From an uncultured Candidatus Peribacteria bacterium (GTDB taxonomy: Bacteria; Patescibacteriota; Gracilibacteria; BD1-5; UBA6164), in NCBI GenBank assembly GCA_964470525.1, contig CAYYDE010000001.1:128447-192446 (forward strand): 64,000 nucleotides of DNA, read 5' to 3'. The notes under the pieces were generated by a model. That model was not told the DNA's origin, made no database searches, and worked only from the letters and a program-made list of their open reading frames with translations. The position numbers were made by a program, and so were the translations under genes. Within the stretch, counting starts at the first letter, position 1. The number at the start of each line of letters is the position of its first letter. Positions 1 through 64,000 of this stretch are shown in pieces.

Positions 1-1
1 T

Positions 2-1066
2 CAAGAACTCAGAGAAAAAATTTTGAGTGAACTCAAACAAAATCAAGCAACAGATTCTCTTGTATCAAAGCCATATTATCAACAAGCAATTATTGTACTT
101 GCTGGAATAGTGATGAATTTTATTTTAGCAGCAGTGATTTTTTCATTTTTGTTTTTTATTTGAGTGAGTCCTGTTGGAATCAATAATAAAATTGAAACTT
201 CTCTTCCTCTCAAACTCATTCCAAACGAACAACAAGCAATAGAAAGATGAATTTTAACCAAAAATTGATGAATTATTTTATATCCTCTAGAATGAAGTAT
301 CGCTGAAAAGTCTGGTATAAAAAGTGGAGACATACTTCATAGTATCATCACATGTACACAAAATGTACAAAACTTTGTTGAATGTGAATGAAATGAACAA
401 CCTCAAGGATATGAAATTTCTTCTCCAGAAGATGCAATGAAAGTTATCAGTGAAAATGCAGGAAAAGAAGTTGCACTCTATATCAATCAAATATTTCTTG
501 ATGAAGAAACAACAAATCCATCCGGAGGACAATATATAAAAGTACATATTTCAGATGAAGGAAAAATTTGATCATATCTTGCTGAAAATATTTCTGTGAA
601 TAGAGATTTTAAATATAAATATGGATTTTTTGGAAGTATAAAGGCTGGAGTACAAGAAACGTATGGACAAATTTTCCTAACTTTTCAAGGAATTAAAATG
701 CTGTGACAAAAAATCTTTGCACCAGAAACACCACAAGAGCGACAAGAAGCTATTGAACAAGTTGCTGGTCCAATTGGAATGGTAGATTTTATGACTCGTT
801 CTCTTGGAAATGGATTCATTTTTATCTTGATTCTCTGAGCAATTATTTCTGTAAATTTGTGAGTTTTTAACTTGCTTCCAATACCAGCACTCGACGGAGG
901 AAGATTTTTATTTATTGCAATAAACGGAACCATCAAAACATTATTTTGAAAAAAAGCTATTAACGAAAAACTGGAGTGAAGTATACATGTATTGTTTTTT
1001 CTTTTTTTAATTGCATTAAGTATCATTATAGCATATAATGATGTCACAAAAATTATAGACAGATAA
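2..1066 (+). CDS. rseP: RIP/site-2 zinc metalloprotease RseP (M50 family); N-terminus cut by window edge
   Basis: With UGA=Gly the frame starting at nt 2 is open to TAA 1064-1066. It contains a PDZ-like segment SGIKSGDILHSI and the RseP C-terminal motif GVFNLLPIPALDGGRFLF. The standard-code track shows only antisense junk here. Confidence 0.85.
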
Positions 1067-1089
1067 AATTTACTTTCTATCAAACATAT

Positions 1090-1692
1090 ATGAATGAAAA
1101 ACTCATTTCTCAAATAAAAAAATATGTTAATTCTCTTTTATGACCTTTAGAGAATCATTATTATCATCATTATGAACATGCTCTTGAAGTTATGAATCGT
1201 TCTCTTGAACTCTGACAAAAAGAAAATCTTCCAGATGAAGATTTAGAATTACTGGCAATTGCTGGATTATTTCATGATGTTGGTTTTATCATTCAATATG
1301 ATAATAATGAATATATTGGTGCAAAAATCGCTAAAAATTATCTCAAATGAGTTTTGTATCCAGAAGAAAAAATTCAAAAAGTAGAAGACCTCATTATTGC
1401 AACTATTTATACCAGACCTCCAAATAATTTAATGGAAAAAATTATTCGTGATGCTGATACTGATAATTTGGGAAGAGATGATTTTTTTGAAAAATGACAA
1501 CGACTCAAAAAAGAAATAGAAATTATGAAAAAAATAAAAATCCTTGATCCTGATTGGCACCATTATTCTCTGAATTTTTTACGTGAACATAATTTTCTCA
1601 CTCCTACTGAAATAGAAGAAAGACAAGAAAAAAAAGAAGAAAATATACGTATTCTTTCTCAAAAAATTCAATCTCAAAACACTTCTCAATAA
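1090..1692 (+). CDS. HD-domain phosphohydrolase
   Basis: ATG 1090 to TAA 1690-1692 (200 aa, code 25). HHYEHALEV...LAIAGLFHDVGF...IRDADTDNLG matches the H..HD..D signature. Confidence 0.75.
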
Positions 1693-1723
1693 ATAATATT
1701 TTTTAAGCTCCACAAGATTTTTT

Positions 1724-2890
1724 ATGTTTCAATTTACTCTTCATAATAAAAATGGAAAAGCAAGAGCCTGAACTTTTTCTACTCCTCACGGAAGTTTCCA
1801 AACACCTGTTTTTATGCCTGTATGAACCAAATCAACCGTCAAATGAATCCATAGAGAAGAACTTGATGAAATGGGTGCTGAAATTATTCTCAACAATACC
1901 TATCATCTCTATTTACGTCCTGGAGACAAAATAGTAAAACATTTTTGAGGAATTCATTCATTTATGAACTATGATAAACCTATGCTTACTGATAGCTGAG
2001 GATTTCAAGTATTTTCTTTATGATGAGGAATGAGAAAATGAAAAGAAAGTCTTGTTAAAATCACTGAAGATGGTGTCCATTTTCGTAGTTTTTTGGATGG
2101 ATCAAAACATTTCTTCAATGCTGAAAATGTCATGGATATTCAATCAAATCTATGAGCAGATATTATCATGGCATTTGATGAATGTGCTCCAGGAACTTCT
2201 GATTGGAAATATGCAAAAGCTGCAATGGATCGCACTCATCGTTGGGCTATAAGAAGTCTGAATCAAGTCAATAAAAATAATGAAAAAAGAAAACTTGAAT
2301 GACTTCCAGAACAAGCACTTTTCCCTATTGTTCAATGAGTAACATATGAAGATCTTAGAATTGAATCAGCTCGTTTTATTTCAAGTTTGGATACTCATGG
2401 GATTGCGATTGGATGACTTTCTGTTTGAGAAGCAAAACCAGATATGTATCGTATGCTTGATATTTTAGAAAAAGAACTTCCAGAAAATAAGCCAAGATAT
2501 CTCATGGGAATCGGAACTCCAGAAGATCTCATTGAAGCAATTTATAGAGGAATTGATATGTTTGATTGTGTTTTACCAACACGTATTGGAAGACATGGTT
2601 CTGCTTTTTCCCACACATGATATATTAAAATTACCAATGAAAAGTATAAACTTTCAAAAGAACCTCTCGATCCAAAATGTGATTGTAAAGTGTGTCGTAA
2701 TTATACTTCTTGATACCTTCGTCATCTTCTTCAAGAGGATGAAATGCTTGGAATGCAACTCTTAAGTTACCACAATCTTTATTTTCTTGTGAATCTTGCT
2801 AAAAAAGCAAGAACAGCAATTTTGGAAAATAGATATGAAGAATTTCGAAATGATTTTTGGAAACATTATGATATGAAATTGAAAAAATAA
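1724..2890 (+). CDS. tgt: Queuine tRNA-ribosyltransferase
   Basis: ATG 1724 to TAA 2888-2890 (388 aa). [31 protein letters not shown]...[13 protein letters not shown]...GIHSFMN matches Tgt end to end. Several conserved Gly are TGA (e.g. 1823-1825). Confidence 0.93.
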
Positions 2891-2920
2891 AAATCTCAAA
2901 TGAGATTTTTATTTTTTTAT
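2891..2920. terminator. Hairpin + T-run between convergent tgt and the membrane-protein gene
   Basis: aaatctc / gagattt stem with a 4-nt loop, followed by a T-rich run. Confidence 0.5.
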
Positions 2921-62640: not shown

Positions 62641-62670
62641 TATAAAAAACTGCCTTCGGCAGTTTTTTAT
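62641..62670. terminator. Bidirectional terminator with UUCG loop
   Basis: aaaactgcc-ttcg-ggcagtttt. Confidence 0.75.
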
Positions 62671-63374
62671 ATTTTTCTTAACGATTCCCCTATAAATAAA
62701 CCTCAATTTTTTTTAATAATATCTAGAAATACTTGAGAGAGTTTCAAAGAAATAGGCTTTGATAATTCTTTCAAACGATTCAATGACATAATATATTTCA
62801 GTTCTCAAAGCTCATAAAATACTTCAACACGAAAATATGATGCATATTTTTTCACAGCTTTATTGAGTAAAGTCACATCTACTCATTCTTCCCTATCCAT
62901 CAAAGCAGCTTCAAATAAAGCAAGTTCTAATCATGCTATACGAAACAACACTCCATAAATCTCTGTTGAAATAGAGTGTTTCTTGAGACGAGCGAAAAGA
63001 TTTATTTTTTTCTGACTGAGTGTTGTTTGAGAAGTTTTAAAAATAATAGTATAATTTCCTATCATAACTTTTTTATTCACACTTCTATTGATAACTACTA
63101 TTTTCTCTGGGATTTCATAATTTTTCATATGAAATTCTAGAGATTTTTTTCATGCAATAAAATATTCACTTCCAACATTTTGAGTAATAAATTTTTTAAG
63201 AAAATGATAATAATATTTTTCCAATAAATCCAATTCATTGAGTTCTCTGTCTTCCACAAGAGGCACAATATACACTCCATTTCGAATGGCAATCAAATGT
63301 TTCTCACTTGTTAAACGATAAATAATTTTATTTACCTGAGTTTGATACTCAGATTTTTTTTCTGGATCTATCAT
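62667..63374 (-). CDS. AbiEi-like (type IV TA antitoxin family) wHTH protein, no adjacent AbiEii partner
   Basis: ATG 63374, TAA 62667-62669 (235 aa; tail checked codon by codon). NKIIYRLTSEKHLIAIRNGVYIV, then SEYFIAGKKSLEFH...PEKIVVIN, follows the AbiEi N-terminal pattern. Recognised by eye only. Confidence 0.45.
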
Positions 63375-63500
63375 TTCATATATTTCTTCTTTAAAAATAA
63401 CTTTTCATCATTTTTTTAACAGTTTACTTACAATTTTGTCAAAACTTAACATATCACTTTTTTCTCTTTAAATAGATAAAATCACTCTATAATATTTTTA

Positions 63501-63540
63501 TACTTTTTACTATAAAAATATATTACTTTTTACTATAAAA
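63501..63540. repeat. Two exact 17-nt direct repeats (tactttttactataaaa) with 23-nt period in the upstream region of the AbiEi-like gene
   Basis: Copies lie at 63501-63517 and 63524-63540. Confidence 0.9.
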
Positions 63541-63664
63541 TATAAATTATTTTATCCATTTTATTCAGAATTATTTATTTTGCAAATTTTTATTTCCTCT
63601 TCTAAAAGAGAAAAATCCCTTATGAAAAAATAGAAAAAGTTTTTAACATTTTAAAAAGTCAAAA

Positions 63665-63692
63665 TAAAAAACGCGTTTCACGCGTTTTTTAT
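63665..63692. terminator. Hairpin terminator after the glucosaminidase gene
   Basis: aacgcg / cgcgtt stem with loop tttca and A/T flanks. Confidence 0.6.
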
Positions 63693-64000
63693 TTTGACTC
63701 AGAAATTCTAAATTCATAATTATCAGGAATATATGTATCTTTTAATGCTGTCAAACAACGTACCATATTATTTTGCCAATTCAATGGTGAAGATGCATAA
63801 ATTGCTCATGTTTTATTTCCATAACGAGAAAGTTTACTCATTTGTTTATATTCTCATAAAAATCTATTATTTAATGTTCTTCACATCCAATATACTCATT
63901 GTCTTGCATTTTCAAAATCCCAAGTTGCTCACGAATCTGTATTTCCAATATTTCAGACATTATATGGAGTTTTTAAATTTCTTCCAAGACCTGTTTCAGA
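63689..64000 (-). CDS. Glucosaminidase (FlgJ/LytD-like) domain protein, C-terminal part; N-terminus beyond window
   Basis: Open with UGA=Gly from the window edge to TAA 63689-63691. SETGLGRNLKTPYNVGNIGNTDSGATWDFENARQGVYWMGRTLNNRFLG resembles the E-T-G..S....NN.FG glucosaminidase core. Confidence 0.55.

What the first reader, a model, noticed from the sequence alone, without database searches (positions are those of the whole stretch)
1..64000. UGA is a sense codon (Gly) throughout: genetic code 25, a Gracilibacteria/Absconditabacteria-type genome
The standard-code ORF track never exceeds 163 aa, and many of its entries are obvious antisense junk. With TAA/TAG as the only stops, long ORFs with textbook motifs appear everywhere. 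Same-frame fragments abut at TGA; for example, five fragments between 3374 and 6445 fuse into one 1151-aa ORF. TGA falls on invariant glycines: Tgt FMPV-G-T (1823-1825), RadA Walker A S-G-EPGIGKS (25108-25110), PilB Walker A VT-G-PTGSGKT (52568-52570), RecG G-DVGTGKT, and the kinase DF-G (50195-50197). Any table-11 annotation of this contig would be almost entirely wrong.
Basis: partly seen in the sequence, partly recalled or inferred. Interest (0 to 1): 0.8.

Follow-up and report, generated by a model that had tools for sequence, protein, structure and literature searches.

The report
UGA codes glycine: a Gracilibacteria contig

Summary
Under table 11 no ORF exceeds 163 aa. With only TAA/TAG as stops, 58 confident genes cover about 90% of the window and carry 675 in-frame TGAs.

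TGA means glycine, not tryptophan:
- In seven conserved proteins aligned to solved structures, 73 of 108 aligned TGAs face Gly and none faces Trp.
- In GlmS against 146 diverse homologues, the TGA columns are 46% Gly and 0.03% Trp.
- GGN codons alone make up 3.4% of codons; GGN plus TGA make a normal 7.05%.
- Close relatives swap TGA and GGN freely at the same glycine columns.

Every named close homologue of GlmS and ribosomal protein L21 is from Candidatus Gracilibacteria/Altimarinota. CGA aligns with invariant Arg, so the extra Absconditabacteria CGA/CGG-to-Trp change is not seen.

The window holds no tRNA(UCA) and no release-factor gene. Those two tests on this genome stay open. A conserved 79-nt tRNA(UCA) with glycine identity elements was found in 76 related genomes.

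Practical note: the large public protein collection holds this organism's proteins translated with table 4, with Trp at every UGA.

The parts
1..64000 (.). Whole window: 27.5% G+C bacterial chromosome segment. TGA is an in-frame sense codon: 675 occurrences in 58 confident genes, 57 of which contain at least one. All predicted genes end in TAA (55) or TAG (8).
1724..2890 (+). tgt (queuine tRNA-ribosyltransferase), 15 TGAs. 11 of the 13 aligned ones face Gly in a PDB Tgt chain (10fb_A).
1823..1825 (+). TGA at the Tgt motif FMPV-G-T.
2909..6364 (-). 1151-aa membrane protein ORF with 44 in-frame TGAs and no Pfam match.
14873..15907 (-). galE (UDP-glucose 4-epimerase), 25 TGAs. 16 of the 23 aligned ones face Gly, including the three of the NAD-binding motif GxxGxxG.
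16995..19007 (-). recG, 22 TGAs. 13 of the 21 aligned ones face Gly in Thermotoga RecG. CGA at 18155 faces an invariant Arg.
18141..18143 (-). TGA at the RecG Walker A motif G-DVGTGKT.
24853..26169 (+). radA, 19 TGAs. 11 of the 18 aligned ones face Gly in S. pneumoniae RadA.
25108..25110 (+). TGA at the RadA Walker A motif (S-G-EPGIGKS).
26399..27718 (-). UDP-glucose 6-dehydrogenase, 11 TGAs. 8 of the 10 aligned ones face Gly.
29182..31008 (+). glmS, 608 aa, 20 TGAs. It ends in the family's usual ...AKSVTVE followed by TAA. It was used for the 146-homologue tally and for the per-codon check of every codon in the gene.
41251..42123 (-). galU, 11 TGAs. 5 of the 11 aligned ones face Gly and none faces Trp.
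52013..53311 (+). pilB/gspE-type ATPase, 12 TGAs. 9 of the 12 aligned ones face Gly. CGA at 52949 faces an invariant Arg.
52568..52570 (+). TGA at the PilB Walker A motif (VT-G-PTGSGKT).
49064..50224 (+). Kinase-like ORF of 386 aa with 33 TGAs. The APH match is marginal and covers only the catalytic-loop/DFG region. The TGA at 50195-50197 is the presumed DF-G.
55475..55786 (-). rplU (ribosomal protein L21), 1 TGA. Used as the taxonomic marker.
32680..33213 (-). nusG, 8 TGAs. A 65-aa SecE-like ORF lies just upstream at 33227-33424 on the minus strand.
46964..48280 (-). hisS, 17 TGAs.
48399..48474 (+). tRNA-Arg(GCG). The five other tRNAs are Leu-CAA (23180-23266), Gln-CUG (45237-45310), Leu-GAG (45770-45853), Gln-UUG (55958-56033) and Cys-GCA (58718-58791). 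None has anticodon UCA.

Best explanation
The window is chromosomal DNA of a Gracilibacteria bacterium (NCBI phylum Candidatus Altimarinota, Patescibacteria/CPR) that uses translation table 25. UGA is an ordinary glycine codon, and here the commonest one, at 51% of all Gly codons. UAA and UAG are the only stops.

Shown here: the meaning of UGA, the use of TAA/TAG as terminators, and the lineage.

Inferred from relatives and the literature, not shown for this genome: UGA is read by a dedicated tRNA-Gly with anticodon UCA. That tRNA carries the glycine identity set (G1:C72, C2:G71, G3:C70, U73), so GlyRS charges it. Release factor 2 has been lost, so nothing competes at UGA, and RF1 terminates at UAA and UAG. 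Low G+C pressure then lets GGA-to-TGA changes spread as synonymous substitutions.
For: 1. ORF structure. The table-11 maximum is 163 aa. With TGA as sense there are 63 ORFs (58 of them confident) covering 90.3% of the window.
2. PDB alignments. Gly counts over aligned TGAs are Tgt 11/13, GalE 16/23, RadA 11/18, PilB 9/12, RecG 13/21, Ugd 8/10 and GalU 5/11. That is 73/108 Gly and 0 Trp. The binomial tail against a 7% Gly background is about 1e-57.
3. GlmS against 146 representatives of 50%-identity clusters with normal Trp content, 37-52% identical to the query. At the 20 TGA columns the pooled residues are Gly 45.8% (background 6.8%) and Trp 1 of 2920. Of the 9 columns with a majority residue, 8 are Gly. 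The single TGG column is 100% Trp.
4. The same alignment read codon by codon shows no other well-sampled codon departing from the standard code.
5. Codon budget: GGN 3.44%, TGA 3.62%, TGG 0.57%. GGN plus TGA is 7.05%, a normal glycine content. TGG plus TGA would be 4.2% Trp, which is abnormal.
6. In 101 close GlmS relatives that the collection translated with TGA = W, the window's unambiguous GGN columns show 'W' (their TGA) in 56% and G in 35% of cells. TGA and GGN are therefore interchangeable.
7. Lineage. Every source-named hit among the best 120 GlmS hits (48-69% identity for the named ones) and the best 120 L21 hits (67-89% excluding the self-match) is Candidatus Gracilibacteria or Altimarinota.
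8. A pattern written only from general tRNA rules plus the 3' half of the Gly identity set pulled a conserved 79-nt tRNA(UCA) from 76 GTDB species genomes, with a 5' end GCG that the pattern did not impose. Most of the record titles listed name Gracilibacteria, Patescibacteria or 'Peribacteria' MAGs; titles were not matched locus by locus to the tRNA-bearing loci. Those loci have a median coverage by ORFs of at least 100 codons of 0.36 under table 11 and 0.94 with TGA as sense.
9. Literature. UGA-to-Gly with tRNA-Gly(UCA) and no RF2 is described for this clade (PMC8629427; preprint 10.64898/2026.05.24.727570).
Against: No tRNA(UCA) lies in the 64 kb, and the presence or absence of prfB cannot be judged from this window. 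The decoding machinery of this particular genome is therefore inferred.

About a third of the aligned TGAs face residues other than Gly. That is expected at variable positions: in GlmS the window's own GGN codons face Gly in only 68% of cells.

One conserved GlmS column (aa 126) is Ser in other bacteria.

The 'kinase' example is weak.
Confidence: 0.96

Rival explanations
1. UGA = tryptophan (table 4), as in Mycoplasmatales, several insect endosymbionts and, according to a 2026 preprint, some Patescibacteria of the class Minisyncoccia.
For: The genome is low in G+C and belongs to the Patescibacteria. The public protein collection itself holds this organism's GlmS with W at all 20 TGAs. The preprint reports UGA-to-Trp in the Minisyncoccia (10.64898/2026.05.24.727570).
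Against: None of 108 aligned TGAs faces Trp in the PDB alignments, and 1 of 2920 cells does so in GlmS. It would imply 4.2% Trp and only 3.4% Gly. TGA alternates with GGN, not TGG, among relatives, while the one TGG column stays 99-100% W. The W in the collection comes from the translation table its gene caller chose: versions of related proteins named by NCBI have G and 0.2-0.5% Trp.
Confidence: 0.01
2. UGA has two meanings: mostly glycine, but still a terminator in some genes or contexts, with RF2 retained or termination leaky.
For: Nothing in the window speaks for it. The window cannot show whether RF2 is absent. Shulgina and Eddy found two 'Gracilibacteria' genomes that keep RF2 and lack the tRNA (PMC8629427).
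Against: 57 of 58 confident genes contain in-frame TGA, at 3.6% of codons. All 63 predicted ORFs end in TAA or TAG. Alignments to homologues run through the TGAs and reach the normal C-terminus; GlmS, for example, ends ...AKSVTVE. At this density a competing release factor would truncate almost every protein.
Confidence: 0.02
3. The extended Absconditabacteria code: UGA = Gly and, in addition, CGA/CGG = Trp.
For: Shulgina and Eddy predict CGA/CGG-to-Trp in Absconditabacteria and CGG-to-Trp in some Gracilibacteria (PMC8629427). CGG is nearly absent here, with 1 in ORFs of at least 150 aa, and CGA is rare at 0.13% of codons.
Against: CGA faces an invariant Arg in RecG (...mnRLLqGDVGSGKT) and in PilB (...aQRLVR...). 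Elsewhere it faces E, V/A, S and Q, and never W, in 6 aligned cases. All named close relatives are Gracilibacteria rather than Absconditabacteria. CGG cannot be judged, because only 1 occurrence lies in a confident gene.
Confidence: 0.04
4. The TGAs are not decoded: the region is full of pseudogenes, sequencing errors or selenocysteine codons.
For: None beyond the bare fact of in-frame TGAs.
Against: There are 675 in-frame TGAs against no in-frame TAA or TAG, by construction of long ORFs that match full-length homologues. The TGAs sit on catalytic and Walker-A glycines. The same pattern holds in hundreds of relatives. Independent Logan assemblies from two sequencing runs carry identical genes.
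Confidence: 0.005

Closest known systems
NCBI translation table 25 (Candidate Division SR1 and Gracilibacteria code; Campbell et al. 2013, Rinke et al. 2013, as cited in PMC8629427). In GTDB terms this is the class JAEDAM01, with the orders BD1-5 and Absconditabacterales.
   Same: UGA is read as Gly, and UAA and UAG are kept as stops. The genome is low in G+C and of the Patescibacteria type, with tRNA-Arg(GCG) in place of ACG. The closest named homologues are Gracilibacteria.
   Different: Nothing was found to differ. UGA is used heavily here, at 51% of Gly codons. Among relatives the share in GlmS ranges from about 23% to 93%. The tRNA-Gly(UCA) gene and the loss of RF2 were not observable in this window.
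Translation table 4 (UGA = Trp): Mycoplasmatales and Entomoplasmatales, Hodgkinia, Zinderia, Nasuia, Stammera, and per the gTranslate preprint some Minisyncoccia (Patescibacteria).
   Same: The same codon is captured. The genomes are also AT-rich and reduced, and RF2 is presumed lost. Gene boundaries are identical whichever of the two tables is used.
   Different: The amino acid is Gly, not Trp. Translating with table 4 puts a wrong residue at 3.6% of positions, often on catalytic glycines.
Absconditabacteria variant with CGA/CGG reassigned to Trp (Shulgina and Eddy 2021, PMC8629427).
   Same: It is the sister lineage, with the same UGA = Gly, rare CGA/CGG and tRNA-Arg(GCG).
   Different: In this window CGA still faces invariant arginines. 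No sign of the second reassignment was seen.

Membership tests
Translation table 25 | In-frame UGA is translated, not a terminator. | tested here: met
   The table-11 ORF maximum is 163 aa, against 90% coding with TGA as sense. Homologue alignments run through the TGAs.
Translation table 25 | UGA specifies glycine, not tryptophan. | tested here: met
   73 of 108 aligned TGAs face Gly and 0 face Trp in PDB alignments. In GlmS 8 of the 9 conserved TGA columns are Gly. GGN plus TGA is 7.05% of codons. TGA and GGN interchange in relatives.
Translation table 25 | UAA and UAG remain stop codons. | tested here: met
   All 63 ORFs end in TAA (55) or TAG (8). Gene ends coincide with the ends of homologues, for example GlmS at 608 aa against 605-610 in most full-length relatives.
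Translation table 25 | A tRNA with anticodon UCA and glycine identity elements (G1:C72, C2:G71, G3:C70, U73) is present in the genome. | not testable with these tools
   None is among the 6 tRNAs of the window, and the rest of this genome could not be reached. In 76 related GTDB genomes a conserved 79-nt tRNA(UCA) with exactly these elements was found.
Translation table 25 | Release factor 2 (prfB) is absent. | not testable with these tools
   No PCRF or RF-1 domain is found in any window protein, but 64 kb cannot show absence. Loss of RF2 is reported for the clade in the literature.
Gracilibacteria / Candidatus Altimarinota (Patescibacteria) | Conserved marker proteins are closest to members of the lineage. 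| tested here: met
   All source-named hits for L21 (67-89% identity among the listed hits) and for GlmS (48-69% for the named hits) are Candidatus Gracilibacteria or Altimarinota, including the complete genome HOT-871. No tree was built.
Gracilibacteria / Candidatus Altimarinota (Patescibacteria) | CPR-type arginine decoding: tRNA-Arg(GCG) instead of ACG/inosine. | tested here: met
   tRNA-Arg(GCG) lies at 48399-48474. PMC8629427 describes this as the rule in the CPR.
Absconditabacteria extended code (CGA/CGG = Trp) | CGA and CGG codons align with conserved Trp. | tested here: not met
   CGA faces an invariant Arg in RecG and PilB, and W in 0 of 6 aligned cases. CGG is too rare to test.
Translation table 4 | UGA columns align with Trp. 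| tested here: not met
   0 of 108 in PDB alignments and 1 of 2920 cells in GlmS.

The most novel reading that the evidence does not exclude
The decoding apparatus of this clade may include more than the known tRNA. In 43 of the 76 related loci that carry the conserved 79-nt tRNA-Gly(UCA), the next gene on the same strand encodes a very basic 110-aa protein, at a median distance of 123 nt. That protein is more conserved across Gracilibacteria than ribosomal protein L21. It has no Pfam, NCBIfam, PDB-sequence or fold match. It could be a lineage-specific ribosome- or tRNA-associated factor tied to UGA decoding. Neither the tRNA nor this protein lies in the window, and the link is positional only.
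Probability: 0.08. Interest if true: 0.6.

Novelty: already known. Interest (0 to 1): 0.2.

Why it matters
For biology, little is new. UGA = Gly in Gracilibacteria and Absconditabacteria has been textbook material since 2013 and has its own NCBI table.

For annotation, it matters a great deal. Table 11 shatters every gene of this contig. Table 4 is what coding-density heuristics choose, and it is what the large public protein collection actually holds for this organism. It writes Trp at 3.6% of residues, many of them catalytic or nucleotide-binding glycines. That degrades homology searches, structure prediction and composition statistics for the whole clade.

Tried and rejected
Proteins were entered as letters with X at TGA, so that the tally was not biased.
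2. An exact 49-mer of the window was not found in the GTDB species representatives, so no organism title was obtained for the contig itself.
3. A guessed DNA string for tgt did not match the window. This was my error.
The collection's own copy of GlmS (P0001) was used instead.
5. The look-up of encoding contigs returned only short Logan contigs of 3.7-7.5 kb from runs SRR16797977 and SRR16798009, not the 252,922-bp NCBI contig. The window could therefore not be extended to look for the tRNA or prfB. The run accessions occur in no paper held.
6. I tried to reach this genome's tRNA(UCA) through the protein that neighbours it in relatives. None of the 120 listed homologues lies on the 252,922-bp contig.
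7. The HtrA search against PDB at E <= 1e-45 gave nothing.
8. Rfam at relaxed thresholds found only the six tRNAs and two chance hits.
9. The structure prediction of the 110-aa neighbour protein was of low confidence (pLDDT 70, pTM 0.40), and the fold search gave no match.
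Full report
**Observation.** The window is 27.5% G+C. Under table 11 the longest ORF is 163 aa, at 54866-55357 on the minus strand, and no stop-to-stop stretch exceeds 171 codons. With TAA and TAG as the only stops there are 53 open stretches of at least 200 codons, up to 1189. A simple non-overlapping gene set of 63 ORFs covers 90.3% of the window. Freeing TAG or TAA instead gives nothing comparable, with maxima of 269 and 347 codons. 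Its table-11 pieces (3374-3811 ... 6242-6445) are, and it contains 44 in-frame TGAs, not four.

**Gene content.** Five of the 63 ORFs look spurious, being antisense to or overlapping tRNAs or better ORFs. The other 58 hold 675 in-frame TGAs, and 57 of them have at least one. Pfam and PDB searches identify ordinary bacterial housekeeping and envelope genes:
- an M50 protease, an HD protein, tgt, a polysaccharide gene cluster (flippases, GT1/GT2/GT4, FkbM methyltransferase, galE, ugd, galU) and glmS;
- recG, radA, recJ, recF and lexA;
- RNase R, HtrA, greA, nusG, hisS, rplU, gatC and a Sua5/YrdC-family protein;
- type IV pilus genes (pilB, pilT, a prepilin) and M23, CHAP and LysM wall hydrolases.

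This is a cellular chromosome, not a phage.

**Which amino acid.** I left TGA as X so that nothing was presupposed.

*PDB alignments.* These use chains from standard-code organisms.

| Protein | Aligned TGAs | Facing Gly |
|---|---|---|
| Tgt | 13 | 11 |
| GalE | 23 | 16 |
| RadA | 18 | 11 |
| PilB | 12 | 9 |
| RecG | 21 | 13 |
| Ugd | 10 | 8 |
| GalU | 11 | 5 |
| Total | 108 | 73 |

None faces Trp. Against a 7% glycine background the binomial tail is about 1e-57. The Gly positions include the NAD-binding GxxGxxG of GalE and the Walker A glycines of RadA, PilB and RecG.

*GlmS against diverse homologues.* The set was 146 representatives of 50%-identity clusters with normal Trp content, 37-52% identical to the query. 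The 20 TGA columns pool to 45.8% Gly against a 6.8% background. Trp appears once in 2920 cells. Of the 9 columns with a majority residue, 8 are Gly and 1 is Ser. The single TGG column is 100% Trp. For comparison, the window's own GGN codons face Gly in 68% of cells. Reading the same alignment codon by codon shows no other well-sampled codon departing from the standard code.

*Codon budget.* In ORFs of at least 150 aa, GGN is 3.44% of codons, TGA 3.62% and TGG 0.57%. GGN plus TGA makes 7.05%, a normal glycine content. TGG plus TGA would make 4.2% Trp. TGA is the commonest glycine codon, at 51%.

*Relatives.* The best GlmS hit in the 5.8-billion-protein collection is this very protein, but with W at all 20 TGAs. 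The collection's gene caller used table 4. Of the other 119 hits, 101 also carry 1.5-7.4% 'Trp'. In those sequences the window's unambiguous GGN columns read W (their TGA) in 56% of cells and G in 35%. The true TGG column stays W. TGA and GGN are therefore synonymous across the clade. The copies named by NCBI, which were translated with table 25, have G and 0.2-0.5% Trp.

**Lineage.** Every hit that carries a source name is Candidatus Gracilibacteria or Candidatus Altimarinota. This holds for GlmS (48-69% identity for the named hits) and for ribosomal protein L21 (67-89% among the listed hits, including the complete genome HOT-871 at 75%). Altimarinota is the current NCBI name of taxid 363464, in the Patescibacteria group. 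tRNA-Arg(GCG) at 48399-48474 is the CPR-typical replacement of tRNA-Arg(ACG) (PMC8629427).

Shulgina and Eddy also predict CGA/CGG-to-Trp in the Absconditabacteria. Here CGA faces invariant arginines in RecG and PilB and never Trp, in 6 aligned cases. The window therefore shows plain table 25. CGG, with one occurrence in a confident gene, cannot be judged.

**Mechanism.** What is shown is the meaning of the codon and the exclusive use of TAA (55) and TAG (8) as terminators. The machinery is inferred.

The window has six tRNAs, none with anticodon UCA, and no release-factor domain. The remainder of the genome could not be reached.

To test the tRNA idea on relatives I wrote a pattern from general tRNA rules plus the 3' half of the glycine identity set: TTCAA, a gap, GTTCRANNC, 8 N, CGCTCCA. 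I scanned one genome per GTDB species with it. ARAGORN found a tRNA(UCA) in 78 of them, and 76 belong to one conserved 79-nt family (GCGGGGGTAACATAAAAGAGTGAGTGTACTAAGGCTTCAACCCTTGGGTGTGCCAGTTCAAACCTGGTCCCCCGCTCCA). Their 5' end is GCG, which the pattern did not impose and which completes G1:C72, C2:G71, G3:C70 with U73. Most of the titles listed name Candidatus Gracilibacteria, the Patescibacteria group or 'Peribacteria' MAGs; I did not match titles to the tRNA-bearing loci one by one.

Loci with this tRNA have a median coverage by ORFs of at least 100 codons of 0.36 under table 11 and 0.94 with TGA as sense. The other pattern hits, which are chance matches in high-G+C genomes, have 0.96 under table 11.

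The literature states the same picture: a tRNA-Gly(UCA), and no RF2 in the recoded members. Two 'Gracilibacteria' that lack the tRNA keep RF2 and read UGA as stop (PMC8629427; preprint 10.64898/2026.05.24.727570).

**Rivals.**
- Table 4 is excluded by every test above.
- Pseudogenes, sequencing errors or selenocysteine cannot explain 675 codons sitting on conserved glycines. Nor can they explain identical genes in independent assemblies.
- A dual stop/Gly meaning is not excluded formally, but it is implausible at 3.6% of codons.
- The Absconditabacteria CGA-to-Trp extension is not seen.

**Comparison and novelty.** This is NCBI translation table 25 in a member of the clade for which it was defined (GTDB class JAEDAM01, according to the gTranslate preprint). 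The finding is a correct diagnosis of a known phenomenon, not a discovery.

Its practical value is real. Table 11 destroys the annotation. Table 4, which is what is stored for this organism in the large public collection, gives the right gene boundaries but the wrong residue at about one position in 28.

**Side observation, outside the window.** In 43 of the 76 related tRNA(UCA) loci, a 110-aa very basic protein follows the tRNA on the same strand, at a median gap of 123 nt. Its top 120 relatives are 78-99% identical, which is tighter than L21. It has no Pfam, NCBIfam, PDB-sequence or fold match. It is not in the window. Its function is unknown, and the link to UGA decoding is only positional.

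Noticed in passing
window 29182-31008 (glmS) and 55475-55786 (rplU); proteins P0001 and P0270: The large public protein collection holds this organism's GlmS translated with table 4: P0001 equals the window's GlmS except for W at all 20 TGAs. P0270, its L21 copy, is 99% identical to the X-masked query but its TGA residue was not inspected. 101 of 119 related GlmS entries likewise carry 1.5-7.4% 'Trp'. This is systematic mistranslation of the whole clade in Logan, JGI and ENA-derived protein sets.
   Followed up: yes
related loci L003-L122, for example L116:1066-1398 (minus strand) next to the tRNA at L116:1528-1606: An uncharacterised, very basic 110-aa protein (MANSHGL...) lies directly downstream of the conserved 79-nt tRNA(UCA), on the same strand, in 43 of 76 Gracilibacteria loci. 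Its top 120 relatives are 78-99% identical. It has no Pfam, NCBIfam, PDB or fold match, and the AlphaFold model is of low confidence. It is not present in the window.
   Followed up: partly
related loci, for example L007:4438-5074: In at least 14 loci the tRNA(UCA) is followed by tRNA-Gly(GCC), and then usually by tRNA-Arg(GCG), as a cluster. In the window tRNA-Arg(GCG) stands alone next to hisS.
   Followed up: partly
window 48399-48474: tRNA-Arg with anticodon GCG rather than ACG. This is the CPR-typical way of reading CGU/CGC without inosine. Here CGT is the main CGN codon, CGA is rare and CGG almost absent.
   Followed up: partly
window 49064-50733: Two adjacent ORFs are unusually rich in TGA-glycine: 33 of 386 and 14 of 168 codons, about 8.5%. 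The first has only a marginal APH/ABC1 kinase match and stops 10 codons after its DFG. The second starts 2 nt later in another frame and matches nothing. This could be a split or frameshifted gene, or a lineage-specific protein.
   Followed up: partly
GlmS relatives P0002-P0120: The share of glycine positions written as TGA varies from about 23% to 93% among close relatives. In some lineages TGA has almost replaced GGN. In the window it is 51%.
   Followed up: partly
window 38701-39377 and 33227-33424: The greedy ORF caller chose an antisense-looking ORF rich in Ser, Cys and Phe (38703-39314, minus strand). A more protein-like 188-aa ORF lies on the plus strand at 38785-39351. A 65-aa SecE-like ORF sits just upstream of nusG (33227-33424, minus strand), below the 70-aa cut-off.
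   Followed up: no
window 22509-23179: A 670-bp stretch between the annotated start of RNase R and tRNA-Leu(CAA) has no convincing ATG-started ORF. The RNase R gene may start further upstream with a non-ATG codon, since its N-terminal cold-shock/OB region is missing from the 510-aa ORF.
   Followed up: no
locus L006:16-90 ('Anaerolineaceae' MAG, 65% G+C): A canonical-looking 75-nt tRNA with a Gly-type acceptor stem and anticodon UCA lies in a high-G+C contig whose ORFs are intact under table 11. It may be a suppressor-like tRNA or a mis-binned contig.
   Followed up: no
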